Shown here piece by piece: positions 5,354 through 11,547 of a stretch of DNA of 64,000 bases (positions within the stretch are counted from its first letter, which is position 1; every line of letters begins with the position of its first letter). A program made the position numbers and the translations under genes. Source of the stretch: Escherichia phage AV126; sequence record OR352956.1; one strand, 5' to 3'. The notes beneath the pieces were generated by a model. It ran no database searches and was not told the DNA's origin. It saw nothing but the letters and a program-made list of their open reading frames with translations.

Positions 5354-5384
5354 GAAAAGGAGCCATTTGGCTCCTTTCTTTTAT
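5354..5384. terminator. bidirectional terminator between convergent genes
   Basis: AAGGAGCC-attt-GGCTCCTT flanked by A run on one side and T run on the other. Confidence 0.7.
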
Positions 5385-5409: not shown

Positions 5410-6297
5410 TCAGAACGGAATATCATCATCGAAGTCCATCGGAGGTTCTTCTTGATTACTTGGAGTTGGTTCTGGTTGTGGTTCAGGCTTTTTAACTTCT
5501 TTCTTCTCTTCTTTCTTAGGTTGTTCTGCGGAACCACGAATGGCAGCAGCAACTTTATCAGACAGAGCTAGAACTTTACGAGCAGAATCAATCAGATCTT
5601 CTACAGATACAGTCTTAATGGTATGGTCTTTACAAGCATTGAGGATAGCGTGACCAACAGATGCCCCAAGATCATAATCATTAATATCAACGCCACGAGA
5701 TTCAGCAATTTCAGATTTCAGCGTGACAGTTGCAGATTGAACAACCCCAGCGATATCGAAAGCATCGCCTTTAACACCATTACGAATCAGTTCCAGTGCA
5801 CCATTTACTGCGTGACCAGTTTCCAGACCTACAGTATCACGTTTTTTATAGGACTGTTTAGGAGCAGCATCGTTGGAACCTTTATTGCCAGAAGATTTGT
5901 TAGACTTCTGAACACCATCGGTAGACAATACTGTAATACGAGATTTTTTAGTATTGTAGTAAGTTTTACCGCCTTTATTATCAACGCGATCAATATCAAT
6001 ACTTACTTCTACACCTTTTTCAATAGTGATCCAGTTATCACCTTCTTTAACTTGCAGGTTTTCATAACCTTCTTTCAGTTCAATGTCACCAAGAGAAATC
6101 CAAACACCTTTCTCATCTGGTTTAGCACCTTTCTCTTTCAGAACAAGAGAAGCTCGGTGAGTTGAAACAATCGTTTTTCCTTCCCAATGAAAAGTTTTAG
6201 GTTCAGCGAATTTATCCAGTTTAACGTAGTCTACGATACCAGTTGCATAAGTTACGGTTTTGCCTTTACGATCAGTTTCAGTATTAATTACGGACAT
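5410..6297 (-). CDS. ssb: single-stranded DNA-binding-like protein with bacterial SSB C-terminal tail
   Basis: 295 aa ending EEPPMDFDDDIPF, matching the E. coli SSB C-terminal tip; Lys-rich linker; adjacent to replication genes. Confidence 0.6.
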   Translation of the reverse strand: MSVINTETDRKGKTVTYATGIVDYVKLDKFAEPKTFHWEGKTIVSTHRASLVLKEKGAKPDEKGVWISLGDIELKEGYENLQVKEGDNWITIEKGVEVSIDIDRVDNKGGKTYYNTKKSRITVLSTDGVQKSNKSSGNKGSNDAAPKQSYKKRDTVGLETGHAVNGALELIRNGVKGDAFDIAGVVQSATVTLKSEIAESRGVDINDYDLGASVGHAILNACKDHTIKTVSVEDLIDSARKVLALSDKVAAAIRGSAEQPKKEEKKEVKKPEPQPEPTPSNQEEPPMDFDDDIPF

Positions 6298-6313
6298 TAT
6301 TATCTCCTCTACA

Positions 6314-6706
6314 TTACATTAATTTTGCACAGAAAGAGCGGAGTCTTTCCATATCATCTTGCTCTAACAGGTATTTACCTTTACCTATTCCAACTCCAAT
6401 TTCACCATTAGGAAAATGAACTATTTGCACTGGGAAACCTCCGAGTTTAATTGTGGCAGCTTTGCCTTCTTCGTCTATAACGTTTCGGATTGTATCTTGC
6501 AGTGAAATGAATTCTTTGTTTGTAACAGTGGTTTCAATTATTTCAGATGTTTCAACACGAGCAGTTAGCTTCTTGTTTCCACCTTGAATAACCAAAATTT
6601 GAAAATAAAAAGAGTTGTCAAGACCTACAACATTTTTCTCAACTAGTGTTAAACTGGTATAATTTCCATAAACAGTTTCAACAGCTATCTTAGAACGTTC
6701 AGTCAT
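6314..6706 (-). CDS. hypothetical protein
   Basis: 130-aa ORF packed in minus-strand operon. Confidence 0.45.
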   Translation of the reverse strand: MTERSKIAVETVYGNYTSLTLVEKNVVGLDNSFYFQILVIQGGNKKLTARVETSEIIETTVTNKEFISLQDTIRNVIDEEGKAATIKLGGFPVQIVHFPNGEIGVGIGKGKYLLEQDDMERLRSFCAKLM

Positions 6707-6751
6707 TGAATGCTATCCTATCATAAAATGTTTAATATTGTCAAGCTTTAA

Positions 6752-7348
6752 TTACCAAGGAATATCATCTTCTTCTTCCGATTTGGTATCTACTTGAGGC
6801 GGACGTGGAACATTAACCTCTTTAACAAAGCGAAGATATGGGAAACGCGTAGCGATTTTAATAACATGTTTGGCATCTTCTCTAACATCTTTGTGCAAGA
6901 AGCAGATCCCTGTTTCCAAAGTTGTTTCAAAATCTTTAGAGTAATAACAATCCTTTCCATCAAATGCAGCCTGGCAGATGGACAGATCAAACTCATTCAG
7001 AAAGGTTGTCATTACATTTGGGTCCATAATCATAAGGTTGCAAAGCTGACCATCACGTTCAAATTCAAAAACGTGTTTAAGACCAGTAACACCCTCGTAG
7101 TTATCCGAAGCCTCTTTGTTTCCTAGTTTACGAATATTAGTTCCCATCAAAGCAGATGCAATCAAGTCTTGTATTTGCTCTTCTGATCGATGTGCAGGAA
7201 GAGACGTGTAAAAATCCAGATCACGTCCAGCAATATCAAGAATACGCCAATCACGAACAGCACCGCCAGCCAAGACAGAATTAGGATCAGCGATCTTTAA
7301 TACGGTAAGAATTTCTTTGGCAATATTGATTTGTTTTGATTTAGTCAT
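6752..7348 (-). CDS. nucleotidyltransferase-fold protein with SSB-tail-like C-terminus
   Basis: 198 aa; GGAVRD...LDIAGRDLDF resembles Pol-beta superfamily GS/DxD head; C-terminus EEEDDIPW. Confidence 0.5.
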   Translation of the reverse strand: MTKSKQINIAKEILTVLKIADPNSVLAGGAVRDWRILDIAGRDLDFYTSLPAHRSEEQIQDLIASALMGTNIRKLGNKEASDNYEGVTGLKHVFEFERDGQLCNLMIMDPNVMTTFLNEFDLSICQAAFDGKDCYYSKDFETTLETGICFLHKDVREDAKHVIKIATRFPYLRFVKEVNVPRPPQVDTKSEEEDDIPW

Positions 7349-7569: not shown

Positions 7570-7737
7570 TTATACCTCTAAATGGAAAGTTTCTTTAGAT
7601 ACAAAATCGTATCCACCTTTTTCAAGCCAGTCATTGTAAACCTCATCGGCTTGAGACTCTATCATAAAATACCGAGTGGTAACTTCGTCTCCGACAATAC
7701 GCACAATTTTATAGCAAATCATGATACCATTTCCCAT
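7570..7737 (-). CDS. hypothetical small protein
   Basis: 55-aa ORF not in track; ATG shares one base with upstream TAA (TAATG). Confidence 0.3.
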   Translation of the reverse strand: MGNGIMICYKIVRIVGDEVTTRYFMIESQADEVYNDWLEKGGYDFVSKETFHLEV

Positions 7738-7928
7738 TAATCTTCCTCCAGATCAATTTCATTATAGCAATGTATGCAGTAGCCATCGTTGTGCATATGC
7801 TGTTCATAAGACATATCTTTACCACAAGACCAACAACGAATATCACCATCGTCCCATTCACGTTCTTCTTCGCCTTCAAATGCATCTGGTAGGTAAGGCA
7901 TACCAAGACAATGTAAATCGTAATGCAT
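7737..7928 (-). CDS. small zinc-ribbon protein
   Basis: Start re-set to ATG after RBS AGGAGGAG; CWSC...CIHC four-Cys pattern; track ORF extended into polymerase 3' end. Confidence 0.45.
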   Translation of the reverse strand: MHYDLHCLGMPYLPDAFEGEEEREWDDGDIRCWSCGKDMSYEQHMHNDGYCIHCYNEIDLEED

Positions 7929-7935
7929 ATCTCCT

Positions 7936-7960
7936 CCTATAAAGGGGCAGAAGCCCCTTA
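7936..7960 (-). terminator. hairpin after polymerase gene
   Basis: AAGGGGC-agaa-GCCCCTT then TTTAT on minus strand. Confidence 0.5.
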
Positions 7961-7977
7961 TAAAACAATATGTTAGA

Positions 7978-10900
7978 TCAATGACAGGATGCCCAGGAAT
8001 TACCCACGTCATATCCGGCAGTAAGCTGAACATTAAGATTGTAAAATTCTCCAGCCTTAGTAACAGCTAAAGCAGCAAGTTCACCTGCCCGACTATAGGC
8101 TGTAAACCATCCACCTTTGGGAGATTCATGAATGTTAGCCCAAATTTGCCCTGTCTCTTTTTCCTTATTATGCTTCCATTCTTCAACTTTAGCAAGGCAT
8201 TCTTTATCAATTTTCTTTTGTTCTTCAGGATCGTCTACTTTCTTCCAACCTAATGATTCAGGTGAAAACCATTTAAATTCTACAAGGCTACGAGAAACTT
8301 CAAGCTGGGCTTCATCGTGATATGCAATCATTTGTTGCACGAAGTCTTTATTCTTCCAGTCATCTTTAAAGAAGTCAACACTTAGCCCTTCTTCTTCGAT
8401 CATGTCGTCATAAATAACCATTGCACGTTTAGCACAGATAACCCCACCACTTTGGAACAGAGAGTTAAGAATCGCGTGAGCAGAACGAGTAGGAACCTTA
8501 CGACCGTCAATACCCAAAACATACTGTTTACCAGTCTTAACCCAGAAATCGTTTAAACGTTCTTTAAGACGCGCCAGTGGGAATGCAGCTTCCCAGAAAG
8601 CATCGAACACCAGTTGCCCTGTGTATTTATCGCTACCAATTGTTTTAGCAACCTTGTCTGCTTGAGCGCCGTACGTGCAGTTACCTGTCAACGTGATAAA
8701 ACCATTCTGACGCATAACAAAAGATTCATTCTTGGTTGAGATACAGAATACATCTGTTACTCGTGAAAAAGCTTTTGTCAACCTCTGTCCTGAAATAGTT
8801 TGTCCGTTATTGATTGCCAACGTTAACATGCCATCTTTTTGAACAGAACCATACGCAATATTACCTGTCATATTGATAGCCAAAGAAACAGCGTCGCTAA
8901 TCTTACCTTTCTTTTGACGGATAACAAGACTGCCGTTTGGACGCTTATGACCATCTGCCATCCAGAATGCCTCTAAGAATGCTTCCAACACAGCTTGACC
9001 TTGATTAGCAATTAATGTAGACCAGTCCACTTCGTGCTTATTTTGACCCACTTCAACGCCACATTTAGTCAAAAATTCCCTAAACTGACTCTTATTAGGA
9101 CGTAATGAATGCATCGTTCCAGATACATACTCGTCAAATGTGAAGATATCTCCCACAGCCTCACGTGCTTCTTCTAAGAATTTTTTCTCATCTTGATCTA
9201 CCGTGACTGTAATACCCATTACTTTATTTCTGGCTTTGCTAGACCACTTATAGTAGCCATCCGAAAGAAGCCAGCCTAAGAAACGACCTTCTTCCACTGT
9301 TAGAGTAGACACCACACCAGATCGCCCTGCTGCAATTATGTTTGACTCCGAGTTTAAATCCTCTGTAGATCTACGCTCCACTTGCATATACTTAACATTG
9401 TTACCATCTGATCGCATAGTTTTTCTCTGTGCGTTAATCCACATATGATCGTTAGTAACTTCTACTTTGAACCACTTGTTACCGAGAGAGACAACTTCTG
9501 CATCGTTATAGTCCCACAGCTTAAGAATAGGGGTATATTCGTAAAGAGCGGTGTGAGTATTATAAGATAAAACTTCATCCCCTACAAAAAGATCTTTACG
9601 TTTCTTCCAACCCGTTCTTGTTAACACTTCCGTATTATCTACAGGTACACAACCGTATTTAACGCTCTTAGCAGGACCACGTTCAAACTTACGTCCAATA
9701 ATATCAGTAATATGTTTTGCCATCATAGTATGCACATCGTTTGGTTTTTCTAACAGAAGTGCATTACAGTAAGCATGATCAGGATTATCATATCTCCACG
9801 TATAATGCGACTCAATCTTCGCCTCTAATGAATCAAAGTCATAACCAATCTGGAAGTATTTAGGAACCTCTACACCAAACAGGTTACGCATCTGCCATCC
9901 AAACAAAGAGGTAACACGAGGAATATTGGCTACAGACCTATGCTTCATACGAGAGGTTGCTGCATCGCATGTAGCCGCTGGCGTAGGTATACGTCCATCT
10001 GCACGAACTGCTGCCAAGAAACCTTTGTTGTATTCTTGATCTTCTTCGTCTTCTTCCCAATCAGCACCGCCACCTAAAATAGAGTTCCTACGATGCTTAT
10101 ACGTTAAGTATTCTACAATCTGTGTAGCATAAGGAAACTTCTCACCCAAAGCTTGCAGGTTAGGACAAATTTCTTTTTCCTGACCTTTGGTAAAACATGG
10201 GTTAGTCAATACTTTAAGACCGCGACCTTTACCTTTTGCTATACGCTCTTGAATCTTCCTTTCCAAGGTTTCCGGTGTGCACTCCAGATGATCACAACGG
10301 TCCTGACAAAAATTAGAAGATAGAGTTTGCTCAACGTAAGCTCGAATACCTTTCTGAAGTTCTTCCTCACTCTTTTTAATCTTGGTGCCAGATTTAAGAG
10401 TCAAATCTTTATCTTTATATTCCGATGGTACCCAACCTAATCCTACAAGCCAGTTTTTAATATGGGTTGTATCGTTTAATGTTGCAGGGATGTGAGGATC
10501 ACATAAAGGCTCATCTGCTGCAACTGGCAGTTTCCACTCTTTCCCCAACATAACTAACCACCAATCTCCATCCCTCTCTTCCAAATGACCATCATGTTTC
10601 TTAGCAAAATTGATCATATGGTTAGTTGGCTCTAAGTTCTTTTTAATTTGCAACTTAGGTGGAATAAAAGCCTTAAGATAGCCTTTTGTTGCTGGTTTAG
10701 GTGGCAAAATAGGCTCAACGAGTAAACGAAGACGCTCCATTTCTGCATCCAAAAAAGCAAGGTTCTCTTCTGCTTGCTTCATGTTAAAAGCAAACCCACG
10801 GTGTTCCTGGCGCGTGATAATGTCTGCTACACGTTGTTCAAGTTCAAATGGACCTTCCCATTTATCATAATCCCCCCATTCTTCCATGAGGTAATTATAT

Positions 10901-11547
10901 ACACTTGTGTTGGCTTTGTTATCATAGATACAGTAATAAAGCATATCCGCAGCAAAAGTCTTAAATCGATCTTCTTCTGGAATCTCTTTACGGAAATCTA
11001 TTTTTACATCCCCACCTGCCTTTCGAGAAAGTGCTGCCAAACTATGTCCTGATTTGCCCTCAATCTTTCGATCTGGGTTTAACACTTTACTCAAAATCAA
11101 GGAGTCAATAAGTTTTACCTTATTTTTGCCCCACGTATTATATTTAACACTGTAATCTAATCCATAAAACAGTTTTGTAGCCAACCAGTCGTAGTTGATA
11201 CCGTTGTGAGCCACAGCCATTTCAACCAGATATTCAGGCTTGTCTTTAAAATAACCTTCATGATTAATAAAGTCTGGGAAATCTTTTAGTTGAAAATGCG
11301 TGTAATCTTGCGCCACATACTCTTTAAGAACATATGTGTATTTACCATCTGACTCTTCATAAGGACGCCCATCAAAGATGTATTTAGGGCCATCGTGGAA
11401 AGCTACTATTTCTCCTGTTTCATGGTTCTCTAAGACAATACAGTGCATTTGAAATGTGTCTTTGAGACGATAAGGACTAGCTAAATAATCAATAGTGTCA
11501 TTATTCAACAATCCGTTTGCTTCAATATCCCATGTAAACTTACTCAC
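7978..11547 (-). CDS. family A DNA polymerase (T7 gp5-like, 3'-5' exonuclease domain) interrupted by an intein
   Basis: 1189 aa; N-terminal DIEANGL and VAHNGINYD exo motifs like T7; motif B RGPAKSVKYG/CTYGAQ split by a 324-aa insertion. Confidence 0.9.
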   Translation of the reverse strand: MSKFTWDIEANGLLNNDTIDYLASPYRLKDTFQMHCIVLENHETGEIVAFHDGPKYIFDGRPYEESDGKYTYVLKEYVAQDYTHFQLKDFPDFINHEGYFKDKPEYLVEMAVAHNGINYDWLATKLFYGLDYSVKYNTWGKNKVKLIDSLILSKVLNPDRKIEGKSGHSLAALSRKAGGDVKIDFRKEIPEEDRFKTFAADMLYYCIYDNKANTSVYNYLMEEWGDYDKWEGPFELEQRVADIITRQEHRGFAFNMKQAEENLAFLDAEMERLRLLVEPILPPKPATKGYLKAFIPPKLQIKKNLEPTNHMINFAKKHDGHLEERDGDWWLVMLGKEWKLPVAADEPLCDPHIPATLNDTTHIKNWLVGLGWVPSEYKDKDLTLKSGTKIKKSEEELQKGIRAYVEQTLSSNFCQDRCDHLECTPETLERKIQERIAKGKGRGLKVLTNPCFTKGQEKEICPNLQALGEKFPYATQIVEYLTYKHRRNSILGGGADWEEDEEDQEYNKGFLAAVRADGRIPTPAATCDAATSRMKHRSVANIPRVTSLFGWQMRNLFGVEVPKYFQIGYDFDSLEAKIESHYTWRYDNPDHAYCNALLLEKPNDVHTMMAKHITDIIGRKFERGPAKSVKYGCVPVDNTEVLTRTGWKKRKDLFVGDEVLSYNTHTALYEYTPILKLWDYNDAEVVSLGNKWFKVEVTNDHMWINAQRKTMRSDGNNVKYMQVERRSTEDLNSESNIIAAGRSGVVSTLTVEEGRFLGWLLSDGYYKWSSKARNKVMGITVTVDQDEKKFLEEAREAVGDIFTFDEYVSGTMHSLRPNKSQFREFLTKCGVEVGQNKHEVDWSTLIANQGQAVLEAFLEAFWMADGHKRPNGSLVIRQKKGKISDAVSLAINMTGNIAYGSVQKDGMLTLAINNGQTISGQRLTKAFSRVTDVFCISTKNESFVMRQNGFITLTGNCTYGAQADKVAKTIGSDKYTGQLVFDAFWEAAFPLARLKERLNDFWVKTGKQYVLGIDGRKVPTRSAHAILNSLFQSGGVICAKRAMVIYDDMIEEEGLSVDFFKDDWKNKDFVQQMIAYHDEAQLEVSRSLVEFKWFSPESLGWKKVDDPEEQKKIDKECLAKVEEWKHNKEKETGQIWANIHESPKGGWFTAYSRAGELAALAVTKAGEFYNLNVQLTAGYDVGNSWASCH
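8680..9651 (-). mobile_element. intein with LAGLIDADG homing endonuclease, inserted in polymerase motif B
   Basis: Begins CVPVDNTEV (block A), TNDH (block B), LGWLLSDGY and LEAFWMADGH (LAGLIDADG pair), ends NGFITLTGN with +1 Cys. Confidence 0.8.

What the first reader, a model, noticed from the sequence alone, without database searches (positions are those of the whole stretch)
5410..7348. Two proteins ending in a host-SSB-like acidic tail
The 295-aa SSB-like protein ends PMDFDDDIPF, the same tip used by E. coli SSB to recruit its partner proteins, and the neighbouring nucleotidyltransferase-fold protein ends EEEDDIPW. The phage may hijack or compete for host SSB-interacting proteins (e.g. 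exonuclease I, RecQ, PriA, chi subunit), or use the tail to load its own enzymes.
Basis: partly seen in the sequence, partly recalled or inferred. Interest (0 to 1): 0.55.

Follow-up and report, generated by a model that had tools for sequence, protein, structure and literature searches.

The report
Phage SSB and enzyme share docking tail
An E. coli phage's own single-stranded-DNA-binding protein ends in an exact copy of the host SSB docking peptide, and a small nucleotidyltransferase two genes away ends in a look-alike, so both probably plug into the same partner pockets at the replication fork.

Summary
In this Phapecoctavirus window, the 295-aa protein (5410-6297, minus strand) ends PPMDFDDDIPF. 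The 198-aa protein (6752-7348, minus strand) ends EEEDDIPW. No other ORF in the window, or in the whole 149-kb ESCO5 genome, has such an end.

Best reading: both tails are SSB-Ct-type docking peptides, much like T7 gp2.5 and gp4 on T7 polymerase. The partner, host or phage, cannot be determined with these tools.

Caveat: whole genera of viable relatives carry a conserved 15-aa extension after DDDIPF, so a free tip is not universally needed.

I rate this a new variant of a known kind, of moderate interest.

The parts
5410..6297 (-). Gene for the phage SSB-like protein (295 aa; PHROG 4477; annotated 'single-stranded DNA-binding protein' in ESCO5 RefSeq).
   Evidence: ORF. PHROG hit at 2.7e-97. 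ESCO5 annotation. 137 homologues. 344 phage records by tblastn.
5908..6297 (-). N-terminal beta domain (aa 1-130), predicted OB fold.
5533..5832 (-). Conserved four-helix domain (aa 156-255; motifs RDxxGxETGHAxNGAL and DYDLGASVGHAxLNA). Function unknown.
5446..5532 (-). Disordered Pro/Glu/Lys-rich linker (aa 256-284).
   Evidence: pLDDT 44-65. Length and sequence vary among homologues.
5413..5445 (-). SSB-Ct tip PPMDFDDDIPF (aa 285-295), identical to the E. coli SSB C-terminus.
   Evidence: PDB and NCBIfam matches confined to the tail. 90% DNA identity to E. coli ssb over the last 40 nt. Present in all 120 representatives.
5355..5378 (.). Bidirectional intrinsic terminator between the SSB-like gene and the convergent tail-protein gene.
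   Evidence: Sequence. Terminator scan.
6314..6706 (-). 130-aa ORF of unknown function, conserved between the NTase and SSB-like genes (PHROG 16560).
   Evidence: The PolA-NTase-130aa-SSB-like order is kept in L007-L017, L087 and L092.
6752..7348 (-). Gene for a stand-alone class-II nucleotidyltransferase head-domain protein (198 aa).
7214..7267 (-). Catalytic motif A of the NTase (aa 28-45, GGAVRDW...DLD).
   Evidence: G28 G29 R32 D33 W34 D43 D45 are invariant across 65 family members. Aligns to GGAVRD...DVD of CCA-adding enzyme 6ibp.
6755..6778 (-). Acidic tip EEEDDIPW (aa 191-198), an SSB-Ct look-alike at the end of a disordered linker.
   Evidence: pLDDT 45-57 over the last 20 residues. 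A PW-ended tip in all 10 close homologues (nine DDIPW, one DDSFPW) with a variable linker. Also in P0136 at 36% identity. Absent in most of the family.
7978..11547 (-). Family-A DNA polymerase, interrupted by an intein-like insert. It heads the same leftward replication gene string and is a candidate reader of the tails.
   Evidence: Weak Pfam DNA_pol_A hit. ESCO5 annotation. Synteny with NTase genes in 43 of 78 loci. The candidate-partner role is inference only.

Best explanation
The 295-aa protein is the phage's own ssDNA-binding protein. It belongs to a non-canonical family found in rV5-like myophages. Its layout is an N-terminal OB fold, a conserved four-helix domain, a disordered linker, and a tip identical to the host SSB C-terminus.

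The tip most likely works as the bacterial SSB-Ct does. It is a flexible docking peptide whose acidic residues, Pro-Phe and terminal carboxylate fit the SSB-Ct pockets of partner proteins. Proteins that read the host SSB tip, whether host SSB-interacting proteins or phage replication and recombination proteins, would then be recruited to phage ssDNA coated by the phage protein.

The 198-aa protein is a stand-alone class-II nucleotidyltransferase head. It belongs to a large phage family that travels with family-A DNA polymerase genes. In the Phapecoctavirus lineage it has gained a disordered linker ending in DDIPW, a look-alike of the SSB tip.

That tail most likely docks the enzyme onto a pocket of the same kind, placing it in or near the replisome. 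The precedent is T7, where the acidic Phe-ended tails of gp2.5 and gp4 both bind the T7 polymerase.

Shown here: the tails, their conservation, the disorder, the two folds and the synteny. Inferred: ssDNA binding, the docking function, the identity of the partner, and the substrate of the NTase.
For: - Tails and statistics.
- Tip present in every one of 120 family representatives while the linker varies.
- Similarity to E. coli SSB confined to the last roughly 12-40 residues, with PPMDFDDDIPF identical. Relatives carry PSNEPPMDFDDDIPF, 15 residues identical to E. coli SSB.
- OB fold.
- NTase fold and catalytic motif.
- NTase tip invariant across 58-96% identical homologues with variable linkers.
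- Other NTase lineages independently end in acidic, aromatic tails (PDDIPW, SNDIPW, DDGIPF, DDLDEGLF, EEDDGFIDF, SDDDF).
- Synteny: 43 of 78 NTase loci carry a family-A polymerase on the same strand, with a median gap of 1.2 kb.
- In an unrelated phage contig, a tailed NTase lies directly upstream of PolA, and a 242-aa protein ending EDEGEDTPW follows the polymerase.
- T7 precedent for tail-polymerase docking, as summarised in bioRxiv 10.64898/2026.02.22.705581.
Against: - No binding partner was or could be identified here.
- Whole genera of viable relatives (Justusliebigvirus, PVP-SE1, Mydovirus, some Vequintavirus) carry a conserved 15-aa extension after DDDIPF. A free Phe carboxylate, which is essential for E. 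coli SSB-Ct docking by established knowledge, is therefore not required by them.
- One Phapecoctavirus variant combines a capped SSB with a tipped NTase, so the two tips are not strictly coupled.
- Close NTase relatives in the same gene order lack the tip.
- The NTase ends in Trp, not Phe. Whether SSB-Ct pockets accept Trp is untested.
Confidence: 0.55

Rival explanations
1. Host-directed use. The tips are mimics aimed at host SSB-interacting proteins such as ExoI, RecQ, PriA, chi, RNase HI or RecO. The phage SSB would recruit or sequester them. The NTase would use its tip as an address label to reach, block or nucleotidylate a host protein that has an SSB-Ct pocket, possibly as an anti-defence enzyme like the Gad2 nucleotidyltransferase.
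For: - The 11-residue (15 in relatives) identity to the host SSB tail goes beyond the minimal DDDIPF, with 90% DNA identity to ssb.
- The Pfam family PF26128 'Gad2' is a precomputed hit in about 40 of 110 NTase family members.
- Gad2 is a phage NTase-domain protein that cancels Gabija defence (bioRxiv 10.1101/2023.05.01.538930).
Against: - The Gad2 hits are weak or faint. They are absent for the window protein's own 90%-identity cluster (P0121) and are not reproduced by the local Pfam scan.
- No PADLOC hit.
- Synteny of the NTase family is with the polymerase, not with anti-defence islands.
- The tip ends in Trp, whereas E. coli SSB and this phage's own SSB-like family end in Phe.
- Capped-tip relatives are viable.
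Confidence: 0.2
2. Intramolecular or SSB-directed regulation. The acidic, aromatic tails act as ssDNA mimics that fold back onto the OB cleft, as described for T4 gp32, T7 gp2.5 and E. coli SSB, and tune DNA binding and cooperativity. The NTase tail would bind the free SSB-like protein's DNA cleft rather than a partner pocket.
For: - Both tails are acidic and aromatic and sit on flexible linkers.
- Tail-OB contacts are established for other SSBs (general knowledge; T7 tail roles are cited).
Against: - This does not explain residue-for-residue identity to the host tip, or strict conservation of I-P-F/W rather than mere acidity.
- It does not explain why an enzyme should carry such a tail.
Confidence: 0.1
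3. The NTase is simply a phage tRNA 3'-end repair (CCA-adding type) enzyme serving the phage's tRNA set, and its tail resembles SSB-Ct only incidentally.
For: - Best structural matches are tRNA nucleotidyltransferases.
- GenBank records annotate it as 'putative tRNA nucleotidyl transferase / poly(A) polymerase'.
- ESCO5 carries 10 tRNA genes and RNA ligase genes.
Against: - At 198 aa it lacks the neck, body and tail domains that hold tRNA in enzymes of about 400 aa.
- Sequence similarity stops after motif A.
- Pfam PolyA_pol scores 15.2 bits, below the cut-off of 23.
- The family sits beside DNA polymerase genes across many phages.
- The tip is invariant across diverged homologues and unique in the genome, which argues against an incidental resemblance.
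Confidence: 0.1

Closest known systems
Bacterial SSB (E. coli Ssb, Pfam PF00436) and its C-terminal tip (SSB-Ct), including plasmid- and prophage-encoded copies
   Same: - OB-fold DNA-binding domain, then a disordered linker, then an acidic tip.
- The last 11 residues, PPMDFDDDIPF, are identical.
- Located in a replication gene string.
   Different: - The body of the protein has no detectable sequence similarity to PF00436.
- It carries an extra conserved four-helix domain between the OB fold and the linker.
- Oligomeric state is unknown.
- Some relatives extend 15 aa beyond the tip.
T7 gp2.5 (SSB) and gp4 (helicase-primase) acidic C-terminal tails that bind T7 DNA polymerase gp5
   Same: - Two different replication-module proteins of one phage end in acidic tails with a terminal aromatic residue.
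- The phage polymerase is family A.
- A non-SSB enzyme carries the same kind of tail as the SSB.
   Different: - Here the second protein is a nucleotidyltransferase, not the helicase-primase.
- The SSB tip copies the host's SSB-Ct exactly.
- Binding to the polymerase is untested.
Class-II nucleotidyltransferases (CCA-adding enzymes, bacterial poly(A) polymerase; Pfam PF01743) and stand-alone head-domain proteins (PDB 2la3)
   Same: - GGxxRD...DxD catalytic motif.
   Different: - Half the size, with no tRNA-holding body or tail domains.
- Sequence similarity is limited to motif A.
- Below the Pfam threshold.
- Carries an SSB-Ct-like tail.
- Syntenic with DNA polymerase genes.
Gad2, phage anti-Gabija nucleotidyltransferase (Pfam PF26128)
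   Same: - A phage-encoded NTase-domain protein.
- The Pfam Gad2 model hits a minority of this NTase family in precomputed tables.
   Different: - Gad2 is about 400 aa and comes from SPbeta-like Bacillus phages.
- The hits are weak or faint and absent for the window protein.
- The genomic context here is replication, not an anti-defence locus.
- No functional test.

Membership tests
Bacterial SSB family (Pfam PF00436 / NCBIfam PRK09010) | Sequence match of the DNA-binding domain to the family model above its cut-off. | tested here: not met
   No PF00436 hit at E <= 1. NCBIfam PRK09010 scores 22.8 bits against a cut-off of 260, and the match covers only residues 254-295, which is the tail. The PDB profile search matches SSB only in the last 24 residues.
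Bacterial SSB family (Pfam PF00436 / NCBIfam PRK09010) | OB fold of the ssDNA-binding type. | tested here: met
   [not shown]
Bacterial SSB family (Pfam PF00436 / NCBIfam PRK09010) | Disordered linker followed by the acidic tip ...DDDIPF at the extreme C-terminus. | tested here: met
   The tip is universal in the family, but 17 of 120 representatives have it internal, followed by an extension.
Bacterial SSB family (Pfam PF00436 / NCBIfam PRK09010) | Binds ssDNA; forms a homotetramer. | not testable with these tools
   Needs EMSA or fluorescence titration and SEC-MALS on purified protein.
SSB-Ct-type docking peptide (short linear motif) | Extreme C-terminus, acidic run, penultimate Pro, terminal Phe with free carboxylate, on a flexible linker. 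Applied here to the NTase tail. | tested here: inconclusive
   EEEDDIPW sits at the C-terminus of a disordered stretch. The D-D-I-P positions match, but the terminal residue is Trp in all homologues. Pocket binding is untested.
T7 gp2.5-like phage SSB | Fold similarity to gp2.5 plus an acidic tail with a terminal aromatic residue that binds the phage polymerase. | tested here: inconclusive
   [not shown]
Class-II nucleotidyltransferase (Pfam PF01743 PolyA_pol head) | Catalytic motif A (GGxxRD ... DxD) and the head-domain fold. | tested here: met
   [not shown]
Class-II nucleotidyltransferase (Pfam PF01743 PolyA_pol head) | Score above the Pfam gathering threshold. | tested here: not met
   15.2 bits against a cut-off of 23. 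The best family member reaches E 0.0011.
CCA-adding enzyme / tRNA nucleotidyltransferase | Neck, body and tail domains for tRNA binding, and nucleotide-selecting motifs downstream of motif A. | tested here: not met
   198 aa against 370-420 aa for the matched enzymes. Sequence similarity ends after motif A. TIGR02692 scores 12.3 bits against a cut-off of 438.8.
Gad2 anti-Gabija NTase (Pfam PF26128) | Match to the PF26128 model; ability to cancel Gabija defence. | tested here: inconclusive
   Precomputed hits for about 40 of 110 relatives, graded weak or faint where graded. None for the window protein's own cluster P0121. The local Pfam scan returns none. The function is not testable here.

The most novel reading that the evidence does not exclude
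The DDIPW tail may be an address label that delivers a nucleotidyltransferase to proteins with SSB-Ct pockets, or to 3' ends on SSB-coated ssDNA. There it would nucleotidylate a host nuclease or helicase, a defence protein (Gad2-like action), or DNA or primer 3' ends, protecting phage replication intermediates. If so, SSB-tip mimicry would be a general way for phages to target enzymes to the host's SSB interactome. The conserved 15-aa cap after DDDIPF in sister genera would then be a switch that hides the tip.
Probability: 0.12. Interest if true: 0.8.

Novelty: new variant of a known kind. Interest (0 to 1): 0.45.

Why it matters
SSB C-terminal tips organise the bacterial genome-maintenance machinery. 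T7 showed that phages use acidic tails to assemble their own replisome.

Here a structurally unrelated phage SSB scaffold carries an exact copy of the host tip. An enzyme of unknown function from a very large, polymerase-linked phage family has picked up a look-alike tip more than once.

If the tails are shown to dock, three things follow.
- A concrete handle on the unknown function of about 1000 clusters of small phage nucleotidyltransferases.
- A test case for whether phage SSBs plug into host partners or only phage ones.
- A natural set of capped and uncapped tips for studying how the tip is regulated.

If they do not dock, this is an ordinary phage SSB plus an accessory enzyme.

Tried and rejected
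- **Chance.** Rejected by six-frame scans of the window and of a whole related genome.
- **Canonical SSB membership.** Rejected. Pfam, NCBIfam and PDB sequence searches match only the tail.
- **The extension as a gene-calling artefact or intron.** My first idea was that the 15-aa extension after DDDIPF in relatives was mere read-through into an inserted homing endonuclease gene. I revised this. The extension also occurs with no endonuclease gene downstream (VEcB, PVP-SE1, a Mydovirus). Its DNA differences are almost all synonymous in the SSB frame. An intron is excluded because no downstream exon or stop is retained.
- **Context of other tipped NTases.** Searches of viral contigs with P0136, P0241 and P0279 found nothing. 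P0136's contig ends before the SSB tail. The contigs of P0362 and P0345 are too short or lack an SSB.
- **Direct Gad2 comparison.** Not possible. No accession for SPbetaL7 is given in the paper, tblastn with P0366 found nothing, and the local Pfam copy returns no PF26128 hit.
- **BFVD fold search.** Returned only uncharacterised homologues.
- **PADLOC.** No hits.
- **Literature.** Searches found nothing on Phapecoctavirus SSB tails or on SSB-tip-bearing nucleotidyltransferases.
- **Horizontal transfer of the tip.** The 90% DNA identity of the tip to E. coli ssb cannot by itself separate transfer from convergence, because the encoded peptides are identical.
Full report
**Identity of the window.** The region is 96-98% identical to E. 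coli myophages of the genus Phapecoctavirus (ESCO5, vB_EcoM_REC and about 60 others). In ESCO5 RefSeq the two genes are annotated 'single-stranded DNA-binding protein' and 'nucleotidyltransferase'. They lie at the end of a leftward gene string: primase/helicase, a methyltransferase, DNA polymerase I, three small ORFs, the NTase, a 130-aa ORF, then the SSB.

**Observation.** ORF 5410..6297 (minus strand, 295 aa) ends PSNQEEPPMDFDDDIPF. ORF 6752..7348 (minus strand, 198 aa) ends DTKSEEEDDIPW. A six-frame scan of all 427 stop-to-stop ORFs of at least 50 aa finds no other ORF that ends IP[FWYLM], or that ends aromatic with at least 3 acidic residues in the last 8. The same scan of the complete ESCO5 genome again yields only these two real cases. 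A bidirectional terminator (5355-5378) follows the SSB-like gene.

**The 295-aa protein: sequence.**
- No Pfam family matches above noise.
- NCBIfam and a PDB profile search match E. coli SSB only over the tail. EPPMDFDDDIPF is identical.
- PHROG 4477, of unknown function, matches strongly.
- 137 homologues were found, and tblastn finds the family in 344 phage records of rV5-like myophages: Stephanstirmvirinae, Vequintavirinae, Seunavirus, GAP31-like, CB7-like and others.

**The 295-aa protein: structure.** An AlphaFold model built on 41 sequences (mean pLDDT 82) shows the following:
- a beta domain (residues 1-130)
- a disordered hinge
- a four-helix domain (156-255)
- a disordered tail

**The 295-aa protein: the tip across the family.** Among 120 cluster representatives, 103 end xPF, mostly DFDDDIPF. 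The other 17 have the same motif followed by an extension. None lacks it. Several relatives read PSNEPPMDFDDDIPF, which is 15 residues identical to E. coli SSB. The last 40 nt of the window gene are 90% identical to chromosomal ssb in 5416 of 5426 E. coli genomes. That is compatible with transfer of the tail-coding segment, but it does not prove it, because the peptides are identical.

**The 198-aa protein.**
- Pfam PolyA_pol matches weakly (15.2 bits against a cut-off of 23). PHROGs 10174 and 1614 are 'nucleotidyltransferase'.
- The motif GGAVRDW...DLD is invariant across the family and aligns to motif A of CCA-adding enzymes. Sequence similarity stops there.
- At 198 aa it lacks the body and tail domains of those enzymes.
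- An exhaustive profile search finds 1045 50%-identity clusters of such proteins, about 190 aa long.

**The tail within the NTase family.** Most members have no special end. The PW-ended tip is present in all ten close homologues at 58-96% identity (nine DDIPW, one DDSFPW), with linkers of varying length and sequence. It is also present in P0136, at 36% identity and in the same gene order. Scattered other lineages end in SNDIPW, DDGIPF, DDLDEGLF, DELDEGLF, EEDDGFIDF or SDDDF. Family-wide, 50 of 243 members end in an aromatic residue against a 12% background (p = 2e-4). That sample is not phylogenetically independent. Relatives at about 36% identity in the same synteny end instead FMDEI, EEFKI, WTDEI or PDVFNF. 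The tail is therefore a repeatedly gained and lost appendage.

**Genomic company of the NTase.** In 80 IMG/VR loci fetched with the family profile, 78 contain the NTase ORF. Of these, 43 contain a family-A DNA polymerase within the fetched flanks. All 43 are on the same strand, with a median gap of 1.2 kb, and 30 lie within 1.5 kb. Many loci also encode 180-350-aa proteins with acidic ...PF or ...PW ends, which are probable SSBs. In an unrelated contig, an NTase ending DDLDEGLF lies directly upstream of PolA, and a 242-aa protein ending EDEGEDTPW follows the polymerase. This argues for a replication-linked role rather than tRNA repair. It parallels T7, where the acidic, Phe-ended tails of gp2.5 and gp4 bind the polymerase (summarised in the paper read).

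**A lead towards anti-defence.** The precomputed Pfam hit PF26128 seen in about 40 of 110 relatives is named 'Gad2'. Gad2 is a 400-aa phage protein with a predicted NTase domain that cancels Gabija defence. The hits are weak or faint. They are absent for the window protein's own cluster, and the local Pfam scan does not reproduce them. I could not obtain a Gad2 sequence to compare. Membership is left open.

**A complication found in relatives.**
- Seventeen of 120 representatives, and whole genera of cultured phages (Justusliebigvirus such as VEcB and PD06, Seunavirus PVP-SE1, a Mydovirus, some Vequintavirus), carry 15-17 extra residues after DDDIPF. The typical sequence is APIGLQYGRNF[LI]HC[FI].
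- In some genomes a homing-endonuclease ORF starts at an ATG inside the QYG codons (L002, Mangalyan).
- In others no endonuclease follows and a terminator comes next.
- Between copies, nearly all DNA differences are synonymous in the SSB frame: 5 of 5, and 5 of 6. The peptide therefore appears to be selected.
- In those viable phages the DDDIPF is internal. By what is known of E. coli SSB-Ct recognition, which needs the terminal carboxylate, that should weaken or block docking.
- One Phapecoctavirus variant has the capped SSB together with a DDIPW NTase.

This is the main evidence against treating the free tip as indispensable. It also provides a natural experiment.

**Conclusion.** The two tails are real, conserved, disordered-linker-borne short motifs of the SSB-Ct kind. 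The first sits on a non-canonical OB-fold SSB. The second sits on a polymerase-associated stand-alone NTase head.

The most likely mechanism is docking to SSB-Ct-type pockets, probably within the phage's family-A polymerase replisome and possibly also on host SSB partners. ssDNA binding, the partner and the NTase substrate are inferred, not shown.

Compared with what is known, the SSB part is a new scaffold for a known device. The tipped NTase is a new variant of the 'several replisome proteins share one tail' theme of T7.

Noticed in passing
Not in the window. L092:4403-4450 (VEcB), L093:2683-2730 (PVP-SE1), L091:2674-2721, L002:4886-4933, L094:2581-2628.: A conserved 15-aa extension (APIGLQYGRNF[LI]HC[FI] and variants) follows DDDIPF in 17 of 120 family representatives and in whole genera of cultured phages. 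It occurs with or without a downstream homing endonuclease. DNA differences are almost all synonymous in the SSB frame, so the peptide appears to be selected and the SSB tip is internal there. Function unknown: a mask, a degron or a second docking motif are possibilities.
   Followed up: partly
L002:4905-5399 and L094:2600-3223: Related homing-endonuclease ORFs share an N-terminal CxKCG...EFYKH...DGH.NKCKEC region. One has an HNH C-terminus and the other is annotated endonuclease VII. Both start at an ATG embedded in the QYG codons of the SSB extension, so the 3' end of the SSB-like gene is a recurrent homing site.
   Followed up: partly
window 8680-9651 (- strand), inside the DNA polymerase gene 7978-11547: A 324-aa intein-like insertion (aa 633-956). 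It begins CVPVDN, ends TLTGN followed by C, and contains a LAGLIDADG-like LGWLLSDGYY. It interrupts the family-A polymerase exactly between KYG and TYGAQ, and is absent from the polymerases of L008 and L009. No Pfam intein hit at E <= 0.001.
   Followed up: partly
window 6314-6706 (- strand): A 130-aa ORF of unknown function (PHROG 16560) is always found between the NTase and the SSB-like gene in this phage group. It has no Pfam, NCBIfam or PADLOC hit. It is a possible third component of the module.
   Followed up: no
window 7737-8033 (- strand): A small acidic protein with two CxxC pairs (CWSCG...CIHC), zinc-ribbon-like, ends EIDLEED. It lies just downstream of the polymerase gene and matches PHROG 25582, of unknown function.
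   Followed up: no
GenBank records matched: Records labelled Campylobacter phage (B15, C3 and others), Acinetobacter phage ABPW7, Klebsiella phage ZCKP1 and Pseudomonas phage PsgM04F are 60-97% identical to this E. coli phage region. Several of these host labels look doubtful.
   Followed up: no
Phage records (Vibrio phage ICP1, Escherichia phage phi92): Homologues of the small NTase occur in the well-studied phages ICP1 (33% identity over residues 4-127) and phi92. These could serve as experimental systems for the family's function.
   Followed up: no
window 6715-6744 (- strand): A sigma-70-like promoter match (TTGACA, 18-nt spacer, TAGGAT) lies between the NTase gene and the 130-aa ORF. The number of such matches in the region is no higher than in shuffled sequence, so this is only a lead.
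   Followed up: no
L006:23073-23264 (ESCO5 gp185): A 63-aa protein next to the anaerobic ribonucleotide reductase genes ends ...GGDELQRLPF. This is a weakly acidic LPF end, much less SSB-like than the two tails studied.
   Followed up: no
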